Virus record (IMG/VR): IMGVR_UViG_2931369376_000001
Coordinates: 1-64,000 of that record
Strand: one strand, 5' to 3'
Source: a virus
Taxonomy: Duplodnaviria; Caudoviricetes
DNA length: 64,000 bases
Part shown: piece after piece, positions 26,668 to 33,567 of the stretch
Layout: each line of letters begins with the position of its first letter
Numbering within the stretch: position 1 is the stretch's first letter
The notes under the pieces: generated by a model
Seen by the model: the letters and a program-made list of their open reading frames with translations, nothing else
Databases searched by the model: none
What the model was told of the DNA's origin: nothing
Position numbers and translations under genes: made by a program

Positions 26668-28218
26668 TTATGCGACGTCGGCGAACATGTCGGCGGCTTT
26701 ACTCAGGGTTGCTTCGGCGCGCGAGGTCTGCGCCACCTCTGTCTCTTCGTTGCACGCGACATAGTTCACGTCCTCGAGGAAGGCCATGCATAGCGTGTCA
26801 AAAAGGTCCGGGGACGACAGGCCGTCAGCGGCCATGCTCTCTTTGCTGGCGATCTTGTACCGGCCCAGCTCGTCGAAGGCGTAGGGCAGGCGTGAGCCCT
26901 GGTCTATGAGGTCGCGCTTATATTTGGTCGACAGCTTGACCACGCCGTCCTTGATCGCCTCGGTAGCGTGCACGGTGCACTGCGCCCGCTGGTTGATGAA
27001 GCGCTTACGGTTCTCGTTGGAGTGCGGGCGGGCGCCCCATTGGACACCCTGGATGATCATGCTGCCCTCTTGCAGCTCCTGAAGCCGGCGCAGGAACTGC
27101 ATGCCCATGGCACTGACGTCGATAACGATGGTGACGTTCGGGAAACGCATTGCGTAGTCACGCAGCTTGACCGCCAGCGGCGTCCAGTCCTCGGATGCGC
27201 TGTAGATTGGGATGTCGACAACCTCAACCCGTCGGCGCCGCTCGTTCGCCATGCGATCGCCCTTGCCGCTGACGCGCAGATGGGTGGCCACCGTCTTGTC
27301 TCGCCCAACGCCCGCGGCGACGTCGACAACGATGAGGTGCCCCCACTCTTCTCCCGGAAGGATTGGACTGGCCAGGCCCATGGCCCGCTCGATCATGACC
27401 GAACTCAACAGGTACTTGCTGAGGTTGGTCGGGAACATCCCCCGCACTTTGATCTGATATTCCGGCTCGTCGACGCCGCCGTACTGGAGCCGCTTCTCCT
27501 TGATGAACTTGATGCCCACAATCGGGCTTTCTTCGGAGTTGAACACCAGCGGCACCCACGAGCCGCCGCGGTGGATCGACTGGCCGTGGTGGGTTTCCCA
27601 GAAGAACCCGGTCGAGCGCGTGGGCTGGCTGGCCATGATGAAGCGGTTGCGCTCATCAGTCATCGCGCCGCCAATCACGCCAAAGTTTTCGTCAGGGATC
27701 CCCGACGCTTCGTCCGCCAGCCAAAGCAGGTAGTCGGCGTGGGTACCGGCCAGGTTCTCAGGCGAGCCGCGCGGTGCGGTGCGGGTGGTGACGTACCAGG
27801 TGGCGCTGTGCCCGGCCACGTAGACTTTCTCGGCCTGAATCACAACGTAGTCAGCGATCCAGGCATGCGGGCCTTTGCGAATCTCGGCCAGCATGGTGGT
27901 GATTTCTTTCCACACACCCTCTCGCACCGTCTTGAGTTTCGGCGCGGTCACGTAGGTGTTGGAGTTGAAGTAGCACAGCAGGTGCCAAAGGCAGATGACG
28001 CCGAAGCTCCGGGTTTTACCAGTACCGTGGCCAGACGATACCGATACCCGGCAGCCATAGGCTGAGGACTCATCAAAAAGCTCTTGCTGTTGCGGTGTGA
28101 CATCCATCAAACACGCTTCAACCGCAAAGCCGTACAGGTTGAAGGCGTAACGCTCAATGAATTCGGGCCACCTCGGGTCTGCCTCTAATCGCAGACTCTT
28201 GGGTTTCGGCTTGGCCAT
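26668..28218 (-). CDS. terL: terminase large subunit (P1 PacB-like)
   Basis: Walker A SGHGTGKT, Walker B LWLADEASG, nuclease acidic motifs VDVAAGVGRD and SPDLFD. Confidence 0.92.
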   Translation of the reverse strand: MAKPKPKSLRLEADPRWPEFIERYAFNLYGFAVEACLMDVTPQQQELFDESSAYGCRVSVSSGHGTGKTRSFGVICLWHLLCYFNSNTYVTAPKLKTVREGVWKEITTMLAEIRKGPHAWIADYVVIQAEKVYVAGHSATWYVTTRTAPRGSPENLAGTHADYLLWLADEASGIPDENFGVIGGAMTDERNRFIMASQPTRSTGFFWETHHGQSIHRGGSWVPLVFNSEESPIVGIKFIKEKRLQYGGVDEPEYQIKVRGMFPTNLSKYLLSSVMIERAMGLASPILPGEEWGHLIVVDVAAGVGRDKTVATHLRVSGKGDRMANERRRRVEVVDIPIYSASEDWTPLAVKLRDYAMRFPNVTIVIDVSAMGMQFLRRLQELQEGSMIIQGVQWGARPHSNENRKRFINQRAQCTVHATEAIKDGVVKLSTKYKRDLIDQGSRLPYAFDELGRYKIASKESMAADGLSSPDLFDTLCMAFLEDVNYVACNEETEVAQTSRAEATLSKAADMFADVA

Positions 28219-28260
28219 AGGATCCTTAAACACAAAGGGGCCAGTTCCCCGGCCCCTATC

Positions 28261-28301
28261 ACTCTACGGCTACGCCAATCGGACTTTGAGCGACGGTTTG
28301 C
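28261..28301 (-). promoter_or_regulatory. late promoter (terL)
   Basis: GCAAAC-N29-TAGAGT, inside the 3' end of the pseudo-ATPase gene. Confidence 0.6.
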
Positions 28302-28992
28302 ATTCGTGCGTGGCGTTCAGCACGAAAGAATCCCAGTGGCCACCCGACGCCCAGCAACTGCTGCCCGTTGTTTGGGTGTCGCGGAAAAAGCCTTTGCGGA
28401 GTCCGCGGCCCGCGTGCAGCACCATGCCGCCGTCACCGCAGCAGGCCAGCCCTTCCCGCGCCACCTGAAAGCTCACCGCGGCCATGGCGTTGGCGTCCTC
28501 CATCAGCCACATCACGTCGTGCCCACAGAAGCCAGCCATGCGTTCAGGGTAGTGCTCGCTCGCAGCCATAAAGAGAACACCACGCCCGGAATACTGCTCC
28601 TGCTGGTTTAGCCTGATGCTTCTGATGGTGATTCGCAGGTAGTCGAGCAGCCATGCGTGCGGGCCGACGATGTTCTTGGCCAGCTTGCCGTATTGCTCAC
28701 AGCAGCGAAGCATGTCGCCGAAGGGCACGGCGACCATCGTCAGGGAGTCGGGCCGGCACAGAAGGCGCCACAGCGCGATAGGCGCCAGCGGGCTGACTAC
28801 CCCCATTTCCATTGGGTTCCGGTCAGAGGCAATCGACACCCGGCAGCCAGGCAGCCCCACGCACTCGAATGCCCGCGCCAGCCCCTTGTCCACTTCTACC
28901 CCGCACACCTCCCGAGCGAAGTCGGCCAGGTTGTTGGCGTAGCGGCGGGCGAATGCAGGCCACCGCTCATCCTCTTGAATCAGGCGGTTCAT
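28270..28992 (-). CDS. inactive paralog of the TerL ATPase domain
   Basis: Colinear with TerL residues ~1-235; Walker A replaced by SDRNPMEM. Confidence 0.8.
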   Translation of the reverse strand: MNRLIQEDERWPAFARRYANNLADFAREVCGVEVDKGLARAFECVGLPGCRVSIASDRNPMEMGVVSPLAPIALWRLLCRPDSLTMVAVPFGDMLRCCEQYGKLAKNIVGPHAWLLDYLRITIRSIRLNQQEQYSGRGVLFMAASEHYPERMAGFCGHDVMWLMEDANAMAAVSFQVAREGLACCGDGGMVLHAGRGLRKGFFRDTQTTGSSCWASGGHWDSFVLNATHECKPSLKVRLA

Positions 28993-29588
28993 GATGCGGA
29001 CTCAGCGGACAGCTGCGCCGATTCCCGCTCGTGCTCAGCGATCAGCAAAGCCGCGGCCTTCTCGATCGCCCGCAGTCGTGTTTCTTGTTTCATTGGCGCG
29101 TGCGGCCACGGCCACACCGTGGTGGCGTAATCCGGCACCAGCACCTGGAGAATGTAGCCGGCGGCGGCGCGCAGCAATTCGTCATTGCTGTAGCGCAGGT
29201 CGCGCTGCGGGTGATACCCCTTCACAACCAGCTGGCGCTGGCGCTCGCTCAGGATGGCGTTCTCGCTTGGGCCCGTCACCGGCATGGCTGGCCACAGCGC
29301 CAGCGGCTGCTCCCAACCATTCGCAGCCCTTTGCGCCCACTCGCTCGGCTGCATGCGGGCGTATGGGCGGGTCACCGATATACCCTGATCCCGGCCCCGA
29401 CGGACCAGGAGCCAGGCTTTAGGCTGCTGGGTTGCATGTTTGGACTGCGCCAGCGATTCCCACACCTGGTACGTCTTTTGTGTGTGGGCGTTCACGTATT
29501 CGCCGGCGTCGGCGTTGTACGCCAGGTCACTGATGCCAGCATGCCGGCAGGACCGCTCAAAGTGTTCGCGACTGAAGAACAAGGTCAT
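28989..29588 (-). CDS. conserved phage protein
   Basis: ILSERQRQL..GY..D...ELLRAAAGY...WPW...KAAALLIAE.ER; start reassigned to MTLFF. Confidence 0.7.
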   Translation of the reverse strand: MTLFFSREHFERSCRHAGISDLAYNADAGEYVNAHTQKTYQVWESLAQSKHATQQPKAWLLVRRGRDQGISVTRPYARMQPSEWAQRAANGWEQPLALWPAMPVTGPSENAILSERQRQLVVKGYHPQRDLRYSNDELLRAAAGYILQVLVPDYATTVWPWPHAPMKQETRLRAIEKAAALLIAEHERESAQLSAESAS

Positions 29589-29824
29589 GACGGGCTCTCT
29601 GCCGAATTGGAAAACTGAATCGCCGTTGACGCTGGCATGGCCCCACAATCGTGGCCCCAGGCAGCCAGGCCGGTGTCCTGGAAGGCCCACCGGTCGCCCG
29701 GGAGCTGGTCGCGTTGTACGTGCTCGATCTCGCCCGCGGCATTGCACAACCACAGCTCGTCCCCAAGCTCCAGGTATACCGTCAGCGACTCGCCGGTCAG
29801 GCGATTGGTCACGATTTGGCTCAC
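29585..29824 (-). CDS. hypothetical protein
   Basis: 79 aa, coupled overlaps on both sides. Confidence 0.55.
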   Translation of the reverse strand: MSQIVTNRLTGESLTVYLELGDELWLCNAAGEIEHVQRDQLPGDRWAFQDTGLAAWGHDCGAMPASTAIQFSNSAESPS

Positions 29825-30312
29825 TTCATTTCCCCGGTCCTGCGATTGATCTCCGTTGGTTTCGTGAAAGCCCGGGAGAACCGGAACTCCTGGATTACCT
29901 GGTTGAAATTGGTTTCCACCCGGTCGAAGTACTGGTTACCGTCGGCCATCAGCGCTTGCGCCAGCATGGCCGCGCCTACGCTGCGCCCCTCCATCACGTA
30001 GGTGGCCAAGCACCGCACCAGGCGCTGTTCGGCATAGGTCCCGCTGAAGCCCGGCAGCAAGCGGCCTGTACCACGCACAGACGTCTCCAAATTAACTGGA
30101 CGCGCATCTGCCGTCGGCGGCATGAAATAGAAACCACCGAGTCGCTTGGGCTCCAACCGCGCCAGCTGTCCGTCCTTGCCAAAAATGTGCATTCCGCACG
30201 CGGCCAGGGACTTGAAGATCAAGTTGGCCGTCTCCAGCCGGTATTGCTGGCGTGCGCTCAGCTTCAATGCGGCAGGCGCCGCCGGTACCGCAGTTGCTGT
30301 TTGCATGTGCAT
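29821..30312 (-). CDS. hypothetical protein
   Basis: 163-aa ORF in the operon. Confidence 0.6.
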   Translation of the reverse strand: MHMQTATAVPAAPAALKLSARQQYRLETANLIFKSLAACGMHIFGKDGQLARLEPKRLGGFYFMPPTADARPVNLETSVRGTGRLLPGFSGTYAEQRLVRCLATYVMEGRSVGAAMLAQALMADGNQYFDRVETNFNQVIQEFRFSRAFTKPTEINRRTGEMK

Positions 30313-30315
30313 CCC

Positions 30316-30486
30316 TTAAATCTTGAGCCGCAGCTGGGCGCGGTCACATTCGTTTTCACCGTGTGGGAGCTTGTGGGCCTGGGCCTCACAGTTCCGGCGC
30401 CCGCAATCACGGCAGTAGGTGTAGGCGGGGGCGTTTCGTGGCCTCCGCCAGATGACGCGATCGCTTTCGCAAAAACGGCAGTCCAT
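30316..30486 (-). CDS. 56-aa zinc-ribbon peptide (below the ORF-track cutoff)
   Basis: MDCRFCES...YCRDCGR; AGGA RBS; operator 17 nt upstream. Confidence 0.55.
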   Translation of the reverse strand: MDCRFCESDRVIWRRPRNAPAYTYCRDCGRRNCEAQAHKLPHGENECDRAQLRLKI

Positions 30487-30502: not shown

Positions 30503-30513
30503 TATCCCCGGAC
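30503..30513 (-). promoter_or_regulatory. 11-bp operator copy
   Basis: TATCCCCGGAC. Confidence 0.7.
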
Positions 30514-31808
30514 TACACGGGGCGTTGGTCGATCATCGCTTGCGCGTACACCCATCGGCGATTAGCAAAGGCGGTTAGGCTTTCGCCCTCTGCCTGCACC
30601 AGCGGACACGTCACTGCGAAATCATCGCGCAGGTCTACCAGGTACGCGTCCAGGGGTTTGCTGGTTACCTTGGGTGCCTGGGCCGGGTCGGATTGCATTT
30701 GTGCGGATTTCTCCACGACGGTGGGCAACTTGACGCTATGGAAAGCCAGGCAGATAGCCTCAAACAAATCGGCGGAACTGTTTGCCCGCGGGCTCCCTTC
30801 AGGGGCGCCCACCCGATAGCGGGCCTCAGCCGTGAAATGGAATGGAAGCTTTGCCCCGAACAGCTCAAGCGCGGTTTCGTGGTTTCGGTAGGTGGGCCAG
30901 CAGTGTTTCAGCTTCAAGGCACCGTCTTTGATCGCCTCAGCAGCGCGAACACTGCATTCCGCGCGCCGGTTGAAGAACCGAGCGCCGCCAGCCTTCTTGG
31001 ACAAGGGATTACCCATGGTCATGCCGTACCGCTTCACCGTTGGGCTCGACATCGCTTCCAGGCAGCGCAGAAACTCCAGGCCATGACCGAGTACGTCTAC
31101 CAAGATCGTGGCATCTGGCAGCGCCGACGCACACTGGAACAGGTGTTTGGCCTGTTGCTCGATGTCTCCAGGGTCGCCATGAATTGGGTAATCCACCACT
31201 TCAACAAACCGCTGGCAGCGCCCTACCTGCGTCGGGCTGTCATAGACCCTCATGTGGGCGGCTACCGTGAGGCCTGGGCGGATACCGCCACCCACACGCA
31301 CACCGAAGACATCCTTGGCCACAACGCCATCAGGGATAGGGCTGTCGATGTCCAGCGCTCGCTCGATGTCGGTGCCAGCGACGAGGTACATGCCGGGATC
31401 GCGTGGAGCTGCCTGGAGAATTGCAGGCACGTCGCTGTTGGTGGCCTGGGCGGGGGGCTGTACTTTCCCACTGACAACGATTTGCAGCGGGCCGGGCTTC
31501 TGGACACGGACCACATCCTTGATGGCGCTGGCCATAGGCGACGTAAGGAAGCTGTTCAGCAGCTGCCGCAGGCGGTAATGGGTCTGTGCATAGCGCGCCT
31601 TGCGGCCAAAGCCTTCCTGCACCGATACAGGCTTGCACCCTGGGATCTCAACCCAGTAGTGCACGCCCCGATCAGCGTTCAGTCTATCGGGCTCCGTCAC
31701 TTTGACGCCCTGGGTGATGAGCCATTGCTTGAACACCGATACATTGCTGGCCAGCAGCAGGTCCGTGTCGTGCTTTTGTCCTTTCGCTTTTGCTGCGGTG
31801 TTCGACAT
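30513..31808 (-). CDS. mosaic protein carrying an inactive TerL nuclease-domain paralog
   Basis: aa ~140-356 colinear with the TerL C-terminal domain; catalytic Asp lost. Confidence 0.8.
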   Translation of the reverse strand: MSNTAAKAKGQKHDTDLLLASNVSVFKQWLITQGVKVTEPDRLNADRGVHYWVEIPGCKPVSVQEGFGRKARYAQTHYRLRQLLNSFLTSPMASAIKDVVRVQKPGPLQIVVSGKVQPPAQATNSDVPAILQAAPRDPGMYLVAGTDIERALDIDSPIPDGVVAKDVFGVRVGGGIRPGLTVAAHMRVYDSPTQVGRCQRFVEVVDYPIHGDPGDIEQQAKHLFQCASALPDATILVDVLGHGLEFLRCLEAMSSPTVKRYGMTMGNPLSKKAGGARFFNRRAECSVRAAEAIKDGALKLKHCWPTYRNHETALELFGAKLPFHFTAEARYRVGAPEGSPRANSSADLFEAICLAFHSVKLPTVVEKSAQMQSDPAQAPKVTSKPLDAYLVDLRDDFAVTCPLVQAEGESLTAFANRRWVYAQAMIDQRPV

Positions 31809-32098
31809 CAGTCAGCTCCTAACGGGTTGGCCGTGAATGGCCTCAGGTTCTCGGGGCGCCCGCGGCGAATGGCCTTGGGACGCTTTTCAACGACAGGCTT
31901 GAGCCACAGCTGTCCGGTTTTGAACAGGAACAGCTCCCACAGCCCAAGCTTGATTTTGGTAGCGCCCTTCTCGTACAGCCGCCAGGACTCGCGACTCACG
32001 TAGATCAGCTCACCCGCGGCGGTTTCGCTCAGGTTCACGTTCTTGCGGGCCTTCCGGATGTTTTGCGGGGTCGGCTGGCGATCGGCGGCGAGCGTCAT
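31808..32098 (-). CDS. XRE/KorC-like HTH protein
   Basis: PTPQNIRKARKNVNLSETAAGELIYVSRESWRLYEKG...LWELF. Confidence 0.75.
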   Translation of the reverse strand: MTLAADRQPTPQNIRKARKNVNLSETAAGELIYVSRESWRLYEKGATKIKLGLWELFLFKTGQLWLKPVVEKRPKAIRRGRPENLRPFTANPLGAD

Positions 32099-33216
32099 GC
32101 GTCACCGCCGCTGTCCAGGGCATCGATCTCGGCCCGGCGCTTGGCCATGGCTTCACGCTGGGCGGTGGTTTTTTCCTGGCCGCTGGCATAAATGGCGTCC
32201 AGTACGTCTTTACTCACGGTGGCCACGACTGGCTGCGCCGGCTCGATGTTCATATTGAAAATCCGCCCCAGCATTTCCAGGTATGGGCGTTGATCGGCGA
32301 TCCTCATTTTGAGCCCGTCCTTGGTTTCCTCCACGCCGCCGTACAGCGCCAGCGCGCCCGGGGAAAGGTGACGGGTATCCTTGAGCACCAGGTGCCCTAC
32401 ACCGTTGCCGTTGCACTCCGGGCAATCCGGGTGCGGGTCAAGGTTGGCATCAAAGCCCAGGCCGCCCAGCTCGTCGAACTCCGGGGCCTTGCGCTTTTCG
32501 CGCTTCGCTTCTGCTACGGCCTGGTCGTGGCGAGCCTTGCGCTCAGTCATCTGGTTCGGCGTCATCTGGTACCGAAAGTCCTTCCCATGGCACCACCGGC
32601 AGCACTTATAGACGTATTCCACCAGCTCACGAGGGTCGGCCAGAGCGGCGCCGTAGACACGTTCAATCACGCGACCGGTGATTTCCTCTGTCTTGGCAAA
32701 CAGCTCCGCGCGCTTGGCCAGCGTGTATGGGTGCTCCTTAACCTTCCTTAACAGGCGACTGGCCGCGGCAGCCGCCACAGCGTCCGATTTGCACTCGAAC
32801 CCCGCATCCAGATAGGACTGTGTGCCGTTTTGCGTGACCAGCCAAAGGTCGACGAACTTGGCCTGGCGCGCATCGAGATCGTGAAGACTCCCGGCCTGCA
32901 AGGCTTCCAGCTCTTTCGGCTTCAGCTTTACGGCTTTCTTGACGCGGGTGCTCCCTCCGGTTTTACGCGTCGGTTTTGCTGGCGCTGGGGTGGTGCTTGC
33001 AGTGGACGCCGGCTTTGCCGCGGGAGGTTTTGGTGCCTTTGTGGCTGGCTTTTTCGTAGCCTTTGGCGGTGCCGTTTTTACAACGCGACCGCTCTTCACC
33101 TTAACCACTGGCGGTTTAGGGGGAGTAAATACACGTCCAGGAGCCTTGTCCGGGGATTGTTTATCCTCGGCTGGCTTGGTCTGCGCTTCGGTACTCTCGA
33201 TCTTCTTCCGTGCCAC
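32095..33216 (-). CDS. terS: terminase small subunit with Zn finger
   Basis: RQAKFV...NGTQSYLDAGF...ASRLL; CRWC...CPECNG. Confidence 0.8.
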   Translation of the reverse strand: MARKKIESTEAQTKPAEDKQSPDKAPGRVFTPPKPPVVKVKSGRVVKTAPPKATKKPATKAPKPPAAKPASTASTTPAPAKPTRKTGGSTRVKKAVKLKPKELEALQAGSLHDLDARQAKFVDLWLVTQNGTQSYLDAGFECKSDAVAAAAASRLLRKVKEHPYTLAKRAELFAKTEEITGRVIERVYGAALADPRELVEYVYKCCRWCHGKDFRYQMTPNQMTERKARHDQAVAEAKREKRKAPEFDELGGLGFDANLDPHPDCPECNGNGVGHLVLKDTRHLSPGALALYGGVEETKDGLKMRIADQRPYLEMLGRIFNMNIEPAQPVVATVSKDVLDAIYASGQEKTTAQREAMAKRRAEIDALDSGGDA

Positions 33217-33567
33217 GGGTCAGCAACCTTAAATGCAAAGTTCTTTGGCTATCAGCCACGTAAACAACGCCAACCTTCTGCGCGCCTGGCGTAAAAAAAC
33301 CCGCAACTGCGGGCCGGATCCTGAAAGGATTAGCCCGCCGAAACGGGCTCCCCAATACCGTATAGGGGCCGCCACGGCTGGCGCTGCAATGGTGTCGATA
33401 CCATTTCCCCAATTTTGACGTTATCCAACATCGAATACCTGATGGCGACTCCCTGTCGAAAGCCGCCACAAGCGCGGAACCGTGTGAACAATCCCATCGC
33501 CCCAGTACCTAGCGCACGACGCCCCGCATGGCCACCCTATGCCGGGTGGCTGGCTTACAAACCGGTG

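What the first reader, a model, noticed from the sequence alone, without database searches (positions are those of the whole stretch)
28270..28992. Intact but catalytically dead copy of the phage's own terminase ATPase domain
Seen: the 240-aa ORF directly upstream of terL aligns along its length with the TerL N-terminal domain. Paralog vs TerL: EDERWPAFARRYANNLADFAREVC / ADPRWPEFIERYAFNLYGFAVEAC; GCRVSIASDRNPMEM / GCRVSVSSGHGTGKT; IALWRLLC / ICLWHLLC; GPHAWLLDY / GPHAWIADY; PERMAG..VMWLMEDA / PENLAG..LLWLADEA; GFFRDT..GGHW / GFFWET..GGSW. Walker A is destroyed and the Walker B DE is inverted to ED, yet the frame is open, is ATGA-coupled to its upstream neighbour and stops at the domain boundary. 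Known: antiviral STAND sensors (Avs) recognise TerL, and phage satellites target terminase. Inference: a retained pseudo-ATPase made before terL (which has its own late promoter) could be a decoy for terminase-sensing immunity or a dominant-negative packaging regulator.
Basis: partly seen in the sequence, partly recalled or inferred. Interest (0 to 1): 0.9.

Follow-up and report, generated by a model that had tools for sequence, protein, structure and literature searches.

The report
Dead terminase-ATPase copy beside terL
A P1-like phage-plasmid of Pseudomonas fluorescens keeps an intact but enzymatically dead copy of the motor half of its DNA-packaging enzyme directly in front of that enzyme's gene. 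Selection preserves the copy, yet it is optional and changes fast, so it probably acts by binding or mimicry, possibly in phage-host conflict, and not by packaging DNA.

Summary
ORF 28270-28992 (minus strand, 240 aa) is homologous to residues 11-232 of the phage's own PacB-type TerL (31% identity, E 3e-23; profile probability 99.6%). It has lost the Q motif, Walker A, the catalytic Glu and the C motif.

It is not a decaying duplicate. About 30 sequence clusters of 185-262 aa share these losses, family dN/dS is 0.25, and the gene sits at the same place in a conserved terS-to-terL block in roughly 80-95 kb Pseudomonas phage-plasmids.

It is not a core motor part either. Five of 20 relatives found through TerL lack it by a clean 689-bp indel, next to near-identical TerLs. 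Its C-terminal half has been swapped by recombination, and its history is uncoupled from its neighbours. Dead copies of the TerL nuclease domain also occur in this clade, at three different positions.

My best reading (about 40%) is an accessory, binding-only TerL mimic used in conflict with TerL-sensing immunity or rival elements. A non-essential modulator of the phage's own terminase is nearly as likely (about 33%). No binding partner was tested.

This scan has already noted dead terminase-ATPase copies on other DNA (P1/D6-like plasmids, jumbo phages). The literature mentions "truncated" terminases only briefly.

The parts
28270..28992 (-). Pseudo-ATPase gene (240 aa): a stand-alone, catalytically dead copy of the PacB-type TerL ATPase domain
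   Evidence: AF2 model pLDDT 91 with top PDB matches to TerL ATPase domains. dN/dS 0.25.
26668..28218 (-). terL, a P1 PacB-type large terminase (516 aa) with an intact Q motif, Walker A/B, C motif and nuclease aspartates
   Evidence: phrog_2 hit, E 4.6e-33. 34-36% identity to P1 PacB. Invariant catalytic residues listed.
28219..28269 (-). Gap between the pseudo-ATPase gene and terL: conserved GTAGAGTG-like motif (28260-28267), GC hairpin (28236-28257) with a T-rich tail, then an AAGGA ribosome-binding site
   Evidence: The same layout is kept in relatives that lack the pseudo-ATPase gene.
28989..29588 (-). Upstream 199-aa gene of unknown function, whose stop overlaps the pseudo-ATPase start (ATGA). 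It is present in every relative, including those without the pseudo-ATPase
   Evidence: The C-terminal domain matches several PHROGs of unknown function.
30513..31808 (-). 431-aa gene whose middle part (aa 135-353, nt about 30750-31406) is a dead copy of the TerL nuclease domain; the first catalytic Asp is an invariant Arg
   Evidence: Distant relatives keep only the N-terminal and C-terminal parts of this protein.
32095..33216 (-). terS (small terminase, Terminase_2 domain), the first gene of the block
31808..32098 (-). 96-aa helix-turn-helix gene, conserved in the block
29585..30486 (-). Three small conserved genes of unknown function (56, 163 and 79 aa) between the 431-aa gene and the 199-aa gene

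Best explanation
The gene encodes a folded, nucleotide-blind mimic of the TerL ATPase domain. It arose by duplication of the 5' half of a PacB-type terL and is made from the packaging operon just before TerL. It is an accessory gene that works by binding alone. Most likely it stands in for, or covers, the TerL ATPase domain against factors that target that domain, such as host TerL-sensing immunity (Avs1-3 or Upx type) or rival mobile elements that exploit the terminase. Shown: homology, fold, loss of all catalytic motifs, purifying selection, dispensability, recombination, and repeated origin of such copies. Inferred: that it binds anything, and that the partner is a conflict factor.
For: (1) It is dispensable. 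When relatives are found through TerL, 15 of 20 carry the gene and 5 lack it. The 5 are nested among carriers with near-identical TerL. The difference is a clean 689-bp indel. (2) It changes fast. dN is five times that of terL (0.215 against 0.043). In the closest genome TerL is 98.6% identical but this protein only 65%. (3) It has recombined. Against that genome the N-terminal half has dS 0.25, the same as background, while the C-terminal half has dS 1.19. The distance matrix of the C-terminal half correlates only 0.10-0.26 with terL, the 199-aa gene and the 431-aa gene, whereas the other block genes correlate 0.6-0.88 with one another. (4) It is still under purifying selection, with dN/dS 0.25 and about 30 clusters of intact 185-262 aa members. 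(5) Such copies have arisen repeatedly. Two further groups of short degenerate copies nest in other PacB-type TerL lineages. Dead nuclease-domain copies occur at three positions in this clade. (6) Both TerL domains are known targets of immune sensors: EcAvs2 and Upx bind the ATPase domain and SeAvs3 also binds the nuclease domain. (7) A terminator-like hairpin lies between this gene and terL, so the mimic could be made in excess over TerL. This last point is inference.
Against: No partner was tested. The gene sits at a fixed place inside the packaging operon, not in an accessory island. PADLOC, Pfam and NCBIfam give no hint. EcAvs2 recognition uses terminase-bound ATP plus a bridging ATP, and the ATPase-like T4 protein vs.8 activates the sensor. 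A Walker-A-less copy may therefore simply not be bound, and any copy that is bound might trigger the sensor instead of blocking it. The recombination and correlation analyses rest on 9-10 related genomes. dN/dS is below 0.5 in every 50-codon window, so positive selection is not shown.
Confidence: 0.4

Rival explanations
1. It is a non-essential modulator of the phage's own terminase. The dead ATPase domain keeps the conserved N-terminal helical module of TerL and binds TerS or TerL. In this way it tunes the timing or frequency of pac cleavage or motor assembly, as a mild dominant-negative or a chaperone.
For: The gene sits at a fixed position directly upstream of terL in the terS-to-terL operon across relatives whose TerL has diverged to 66% identity. 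It is translationally coupled to the conserved 199-aa gene. The N-terminal half is the best conserved part (dN/dS 0.13-0.17), and the N-terminal motif is shared with TerL. The N-terminal half's distances correlate 0.60 with terL. From general knowledge of lambda gpA and gpNu1, the N-terminus of TerL is often the TerS-binding part.
Against: Phages with near-identical TerL and TerS lack the gene. The C-terminal half is exchanged independently of TerL. The candidate trans-acting Arg (R96) is conserved only in the close family, not in the wider one.
Confidence: 0.33
2. It is one half of a two-gene 'split pseudo-terminase'. The dead ATPase protein and the dead nuclease domain in the 431-aa protein would associate into a TerL-like heterodimer with a function of its own.
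For: The two proteins together cover TerL residues 11-482, with the break at the interdomain linker. Both lie in the same operon, and both have dN/dS of about 0.25.
Against: Distant relatives have the pseudo-ATPase but no nuclease-like domain in the 431-aa homolog. Other relatives carry the nuclease-like copy downstream of terL, with or without the pseudo-ATPase. The distance matrices of the two are uncorrelated (0.10-0.21).
Confidence: 0.08
3. It is a functionless remnant of a tandem terL duplication that has not yet decayed.
For: The gene is dispensable in nature. All catalytic motifs are lost. The C-terminal tail is relaxed (dN/dS 0.48).
Against: The frame is open and the length is kept in about 30 clusters down to roughly 25% identity. 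dN/dS is 0.25 overall and 0.13-0.17 in the N-terminal half. New family-specific conserved motifs replace the P-loop. Start-stop coupling is kept in all lineages.
Confidence: 0.04

Closest known systems
PacB, the large terminase of phage P1 (PacB-type TerL), N-terminal ATPase domain
   Same: Clear sequence homology to the phage's own PacB-type TerL. Same predicted ASCE ATPase fold, and the shared N-terminal helical motif and core strands.
   Different: No Q motif, Walker A, catalytic Glu or C motif, and no nuclease domain. It is 240 aa against 516 aa, evolves five times faster and is optional.
T4 vs.8, a stand-alone protein homologous to the T4 terminase ATPase domain (Evans et al. 2026, bioRxiv 10.64898/2026.04.30.721860)
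   Same: A separate phage gene that encodes only a TerL-ATPase-like domain, with unknown function.
   Different: vs.8 keeps Walker A and B and is toxic with EcAvs2, so it activates the sensor. It derives from a T4-type TerL, not a PacB-type one. The protein here has lost all nucleotide-binding motifs.
'Truncated large terminase' genes next to terL in Rak2-like jumbo phages (CBB_274) and Sinorhizobium phages phiM12 and phiN3 (Buttimer et al. 2017, PMC5259590)
   Same: A second, incomplete terminase-domain gene beside the real terL, noted as unusual and left unexplained.
   Different: Those come from the T4 gp17 lineage in virulent jumbo or T4-like phages. This one is an independent derivative of PacB-type TerL in temperate phage-plasmids. 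No selection, polymorphism or motif analysis was published for them.
Dead PacB-type ATPase paralogs in P1/D6-like enterobacterial phage-plasmids
   Same: Short, Walker-degenerate copies of the PacB ATPase domain in P1-like elements.
   Different: They branch from other TerL lineages, so their origins are separate. They keep the Q motif. The one context I looked at is not adjacent to terL but about 2.5 kb upstream, beyond a parM module.

Membership tests
Large terminase subunit, PacB/P1 type (active enzyme) | Sequence homology to the ATPase domain | tested here: met
   E 3e-23 by BLASTP and 99.6% probability by hhalign. The family profile finds full-length PacB-type TerLs.
Large terminase subunit, PacB/P1 type (active enzyme) | Walker A (SGHGTGK[TS]) and the Q motif for ATP binding | tested here: not met
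   Both are absent in all members of the short family. They are invariant in 41 diverse TerLs.
Large terminase subunit, PacB/P1 type (active enzyme) | Walker B Asp-Glu and the C motif (SQPTR) | tested here: not met
   The Asp position is Glu, the Glu position is variable, and the C motif is lost.
Large terminase subunit, PacB/P1 type (active enzyme) | C-terminal RNase H-like nuclease domain in the same chain | tested here: not met
   The ORF stops at the domain boundary.
Large terminase subunit, PacB/P1 type (active enzyme) | TerL ATPase-domain fold | tested here: met
   AF2 model pLDDT 91.3. Top PDB matches are the P74-26, T4, Sf6, D6E and HK97 TerL ATPase domains. Caveat: the input alignment contained TerLs.
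Stand-alone TerL-ATPase-like paralogs ('truncated large terminase', T4 vs.8) | A separate gene encoding only an ATPase-like domain, in a genome that also has a complete terL | tested here: met
Stand-alone TerL-ATPase-like paralogs ('truncated large terminase', T4 vs.8) | Common descent with the T4-type examples | tested here: not met
   No Pfam Terminase_6N hit. The family nests among PacB-type TerLs. This is a parallel origin, not the same family.
Anti-defence decoy or inhibitor of TerL-sensing immunity (Avs1-3, Upx) | Binds the sensor and prevents its activation | not testable with these tools
Accessory (non-core) phage gene | Presence/absence variation among close relatives | tested here: met
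   Five of 20 TerL-ascertained relatives lack it through a clean 689-bp indel, and they are nested among carriers.

The most novel reading that the evidence does not exclude
Phages repeatedly turn dead copies of each half of their own terminase into mimics that blunt immune sensors aimed at the terminase (Avs1-3, Upx). The Walker-less ATPase copy here, and the Asp-less nuclease copies nearby, would be the first anti-defence proteins derived from the sensed protein itself. Loss of ATP binding would be what stops them from activating the sensor.
Probability: 0.2. Interest if true: 0.85.

Novelty: new variant of a known kind. Interest (0 to 1): 0.6.

Why it matters
TerL is the most conserved protein of tailed phages and a main target of bacterial pattern-recognition immunity. 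A family of selection-maintained, optional, fast-recombining dead copies of its domains has arisen several times independently. That points to an unrecognised layer of either terminase regulation or immune evasion. This case offers tractable material. The carriers are complete circular phage-plasmids in cultivable Pseudomonas strains (P. fluorescens DR133; P. putida KF715 pKF715C), and natural relatives with and without the gene exist. The question 'what are truncated terminases for?' therefore becomes directly testable.

Tried and rejected
- AF2 on the 12 close homologs alone gave an unusable model (pLDDT 46). It was replaced by a deep alignment.
Binding and expression therefore remain untested.
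- The search for related loci with the divergent family alignment failed because it had no conserved stretch.
- Sequence searches of the PDB with the TerL and pseudo-ATPase profiles found nothing significant.
- Pfam, NCBIfam and PADLOC gave no family for the gene or for most of its neighbours. The ESM Atlas search on the 199-aa neighbour was uninformative.
- I rejected the idea that the N-terminus of the 431-aa protein keeps a vestige of Walker A. hhalign aligns only residues 135-353 to TerL.
- I rejected a retained trans-acting arginine finger (R96). It is invariant only in the close family and not in the wide family.
- I found no support for the motif before terL being a repeated late-promoter box. 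It occurs once in the window. RNAalifold found no shared structure across the divergent gaps, although each gap folds into its own hairpin.
- Viral-contig searches with two members of the other short groups returned either nothing or only full-length TerLs.
- GenBank phages hold no homolog of the pseudo-ATPase apart from TerLs.

Full report
**What is there.**
The window is part of CP048608.1, an 80,993-bp circular 'plasmid' of Pseudomonas fluorescens DR133. It is in fact a P1-like phage-plasmid. Its TerL is 34-36% identical to P1 PacB, and a Terminase_2 small subunit lies upstream.

All genes in this region are on the minus strand. Their order is:
- terS (32095-33216)
- a 96-aa helix-turn-helix gene
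- a 431-aa gene (30513-31808)
- three small genes
- a 199-aa gene (28989-29588)
- the 240-aa ORF of the finding (28270-28992)
- terL (26668-28218)

Every one of these is annotated 'hypothetical protein' in the record.

**The observation.**
- The 240-aa protein aligns with TerL residues 16-243 at 31% identity, E 3e-23. Profile against profile gives 99.6% probability over TerL residues 11-232.
- In 41 diverse PacB-type TerLs the Q motif, Walker A, a His after the PE-LAG loop, Walker B Asp-Glu and the nuclease aspartates are invariant.
- In the 240-aa protein and all its relatives the Q motif, Walker A, that His, the catalytic Glu and the C motif are gone. The Walker B Asp position is a conserved Glu.
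- The stop of the 199-aa gene overlaps the start codon as ATGA.
- With a deep alignment AlphaFold gives a confident model (pLDDT 91.3). Its best PDB matches are TerL ATPase domains of P74-26, T4, Sf6, D6E and HK97. The alignment contained TerLs, so this confirms the homology but does not add independent evidence.

**Not a decaying duplicate.**
- A word-index search found 12 clusters of 236-240 aa at 53-77% identity, all intact.
- An exhaustive profile search found about 30 clusters (at 50% identity) of 185-262 aa proteins with the same losses, besides full-length and intein-bearing TerLs.
- In ten closely related genomes Nei-Gojobori dN/dS is 0.25 for this gene. It is 0.08 for terL, 0.16 for terS and 0.12 for the 199-aa gene.
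- The same block (terS, HTH gene, a homolog of the 431-aa gene, small genes, a roughly 198-aa gene, the pseudo-ATPase, terL) recurs in elements whose TerL is only 66-78% identical and whose pseudo-ATPase is 30-41% identical. These include pKF715C of P. putida KF715.
- In a tree of N-terminal domains the family is one clade (SH-aLRT 86), in an unresolved polytomy with its cognate TerLs. This is compatible with one old duplication of the 5' half of terL.

**Not a core part of the motor.**
- I re-ascertained relatives through TerL, which avoids choosing only genomes that carry the gene. Of the 20 loci from those two searches that belong to the clade and have upstream sequence, 15 carry the pseudo-ATPase directly before terL and 5 do not.
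- The five are nested among carriers with almost identical TerL.
- A DNA comparison shows a flush 689-bp indel that removes exactly this gene and leaves the 199-aa gene next to terL.
- The gene also evolves oddly. In the closest genome TerL is 98.6% identical and the 199-aa protein 93%, but this protein only 65%. Its N-terminal half has dS 0.25, like the background, while the C-terminal half has dS 1.19, so that half was replaced by recombination.
- Across nine genomes the C-terminal half's distances correlate only 0.10-0.26 with those of terL, the 199-aa gene or the 431-aa gene. The other block genes correlate 0.6-0.88 with each other. The sample is small and the pairs are not independent, so this is suggestive only.

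**Copies of the other TerL half.**
- Residues 135-353 of the 431-aa protein are homologous to TerL residues 263-482 (33% identity, E 3e-32; 99.9% by hhalign). The first catalytic Asp is an invariant Arg.
- Distant relatives keep only the N-terminal roughly 100 aa and the C-terminal roughly 55 aa of this protein. The nuclease-like part is therefore either a lineage-specific insertion or was lost in the other lineages.
- In three other relatives a nuclease-like ORF lies just downstream of terL, with the same Asp changed to Val. A fourth relative has one elsewhere.
- The pseudo-ATPase and these copies occur independently of each other and their distances do not correlate. A dedicated 'split pseudo-terminase' pair is therefore unlikely.

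**How it probably works.**
The protein cannot bind or hydrolyse ATP as a TerL does, so it must act by binding. It is optional, fast-changing and recombining. Dead copies of both TerL domains keep arising: there are two further independent short groups among PacB-type TerLs, earlier scan notes on P1/D6-like plasmids and jumbo phages, and 'truncated' terminases in Rak2-like phages.

Both TerL domains are direct targets of immune sensors. EcAvs2 and Upx bind the ATPase domain, and SeAvs3 also binds the nuclease domain.

I therefore favour a conflict role as a TerL mimic or shield (about 40%). The main caveats are published. EcAvs2 reads the terminase-bound ATP together with a bridging ATP, and the Walker-intact T4 protein vs.8 activates the sensor. 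A Walker-less copy might thus go unrecognised, or its ATP-blindness might be what keeps it from triggering the sensor. These tools cannot decide between the two.

The fixed position in the packaging operon, the coupling to the 199-aa gene and the well-conserved N-terminal module shared with TerL keep a non-essential modulator of the phage's own terminase almost as likely (about 33%).

**The gap before terL.**
The 51-nt gap holds a motif conserved across all lineages (it reads as TAnnnT), then a GC-rich hairpin with a T-rich tail, then the ribosome-binding site. Relatives without the pseudo-ATPase keep this layout. It could be a terminator or attenuator for the terS operon, a promoter with a 5' stem-loop, or both.

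**Novelty.**
The general kind, a partial terminase gene beside terL, has been noted in passing in the literature, and this scan has seen it several times. New here are:
- an independent PacB-derived family in Pseudomonas phage-plasmids;
- its selection and recombination pattern;
- its natural presence/absence polymorphism;
- the parallel dead nuclease-domain copies.

The function remains untested.

Noticed in passing
window 30513-31808 (-), domain at about 30750-31406: The 431-aa gene carries a dead copy of the TerL nuclease domain (first catalytic Asp is an invariant Arg) between a conserved N-terminal part and a very conserved C-terminal tail. Distant relatives have the two flanks without the nuclease-like middle.
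   Followed up: yes
L075:8589-9473, L077:8590-9312, L081:8555-9442 (+); also L079:2-739: Separate nuclease-domain-like ORFs lie just downstream of terL in related phage-plasmids, with the first catalytic Asp replaced by Val. This is a second and third genomic position for dead TerL nuclease copies.
   Followed up: partly
window 28219-28269 (-): A conserved GTAGAGTG-like motif, a 9-bp GC hairpin with a T-rich tail and an AAGGA ribosome-binding site lie just before terL. The layout is kept across lineages and in relatives that lack the pseudo-ATPase. Whether it is a terminator, an attenuator or a promoter is undecided.
   Followed up: partly
proteins P0076, P0089, P0106, P0135 and P0066, P0088, P0091, P0124; locus L064:7001-7759: Two further groups of 228-279 aa PacB-type ATPase-domain copies have degenerate Walker A and B but an intact Q motif. 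Each nests in a different TerL lineage. One (P0106) lies in a P7-C1-type element about 2.5 kb upstream of pacA-pacB, beyond a parM module.
   Followed up: partly
proteins P0028, P0033, P0044, P0050, P0054, P0061, P0067, P0086, P0090, P0132; L085:6959-9280, L086:6983-9295: Many PacB-type TerLs of 640-870 aa appear to carry an intein inserted inside Walker A (the motif breaks after SGHG and continues with Cys). One plasmid hit is annotated as a Hint-domain homing endonuclease (NZ_CP070504.1).
   Followed up: no
window 29585-29824 (-): The 79-aa gene is also an exchanged allele between the window and its closest relative (dS 1.88 against a background of about 0.25), independently of the unchanged 199-aa gene that lies between it and the pseudo-ATPase.
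   Followed up: no
window 30316-30486 (-): A 56-aa ORF with CxxC...CxxC spacing (weak Lar-like and zinc-ribbon hints) is 48% identical to a called gene in the distant relative L013. It is not annotated in CP048608.1.
   Followed up: no
window 33298-33315 (-) and 32095-33216: A terminator-like hairpin with a T7 run lies about 80 nt upstream of terS. The record annotates terS from a later start (32095-32901), while relatives support the 373-aa form with a Lys/Pro/Ala-rich N-terminal region.
   Followed up: no
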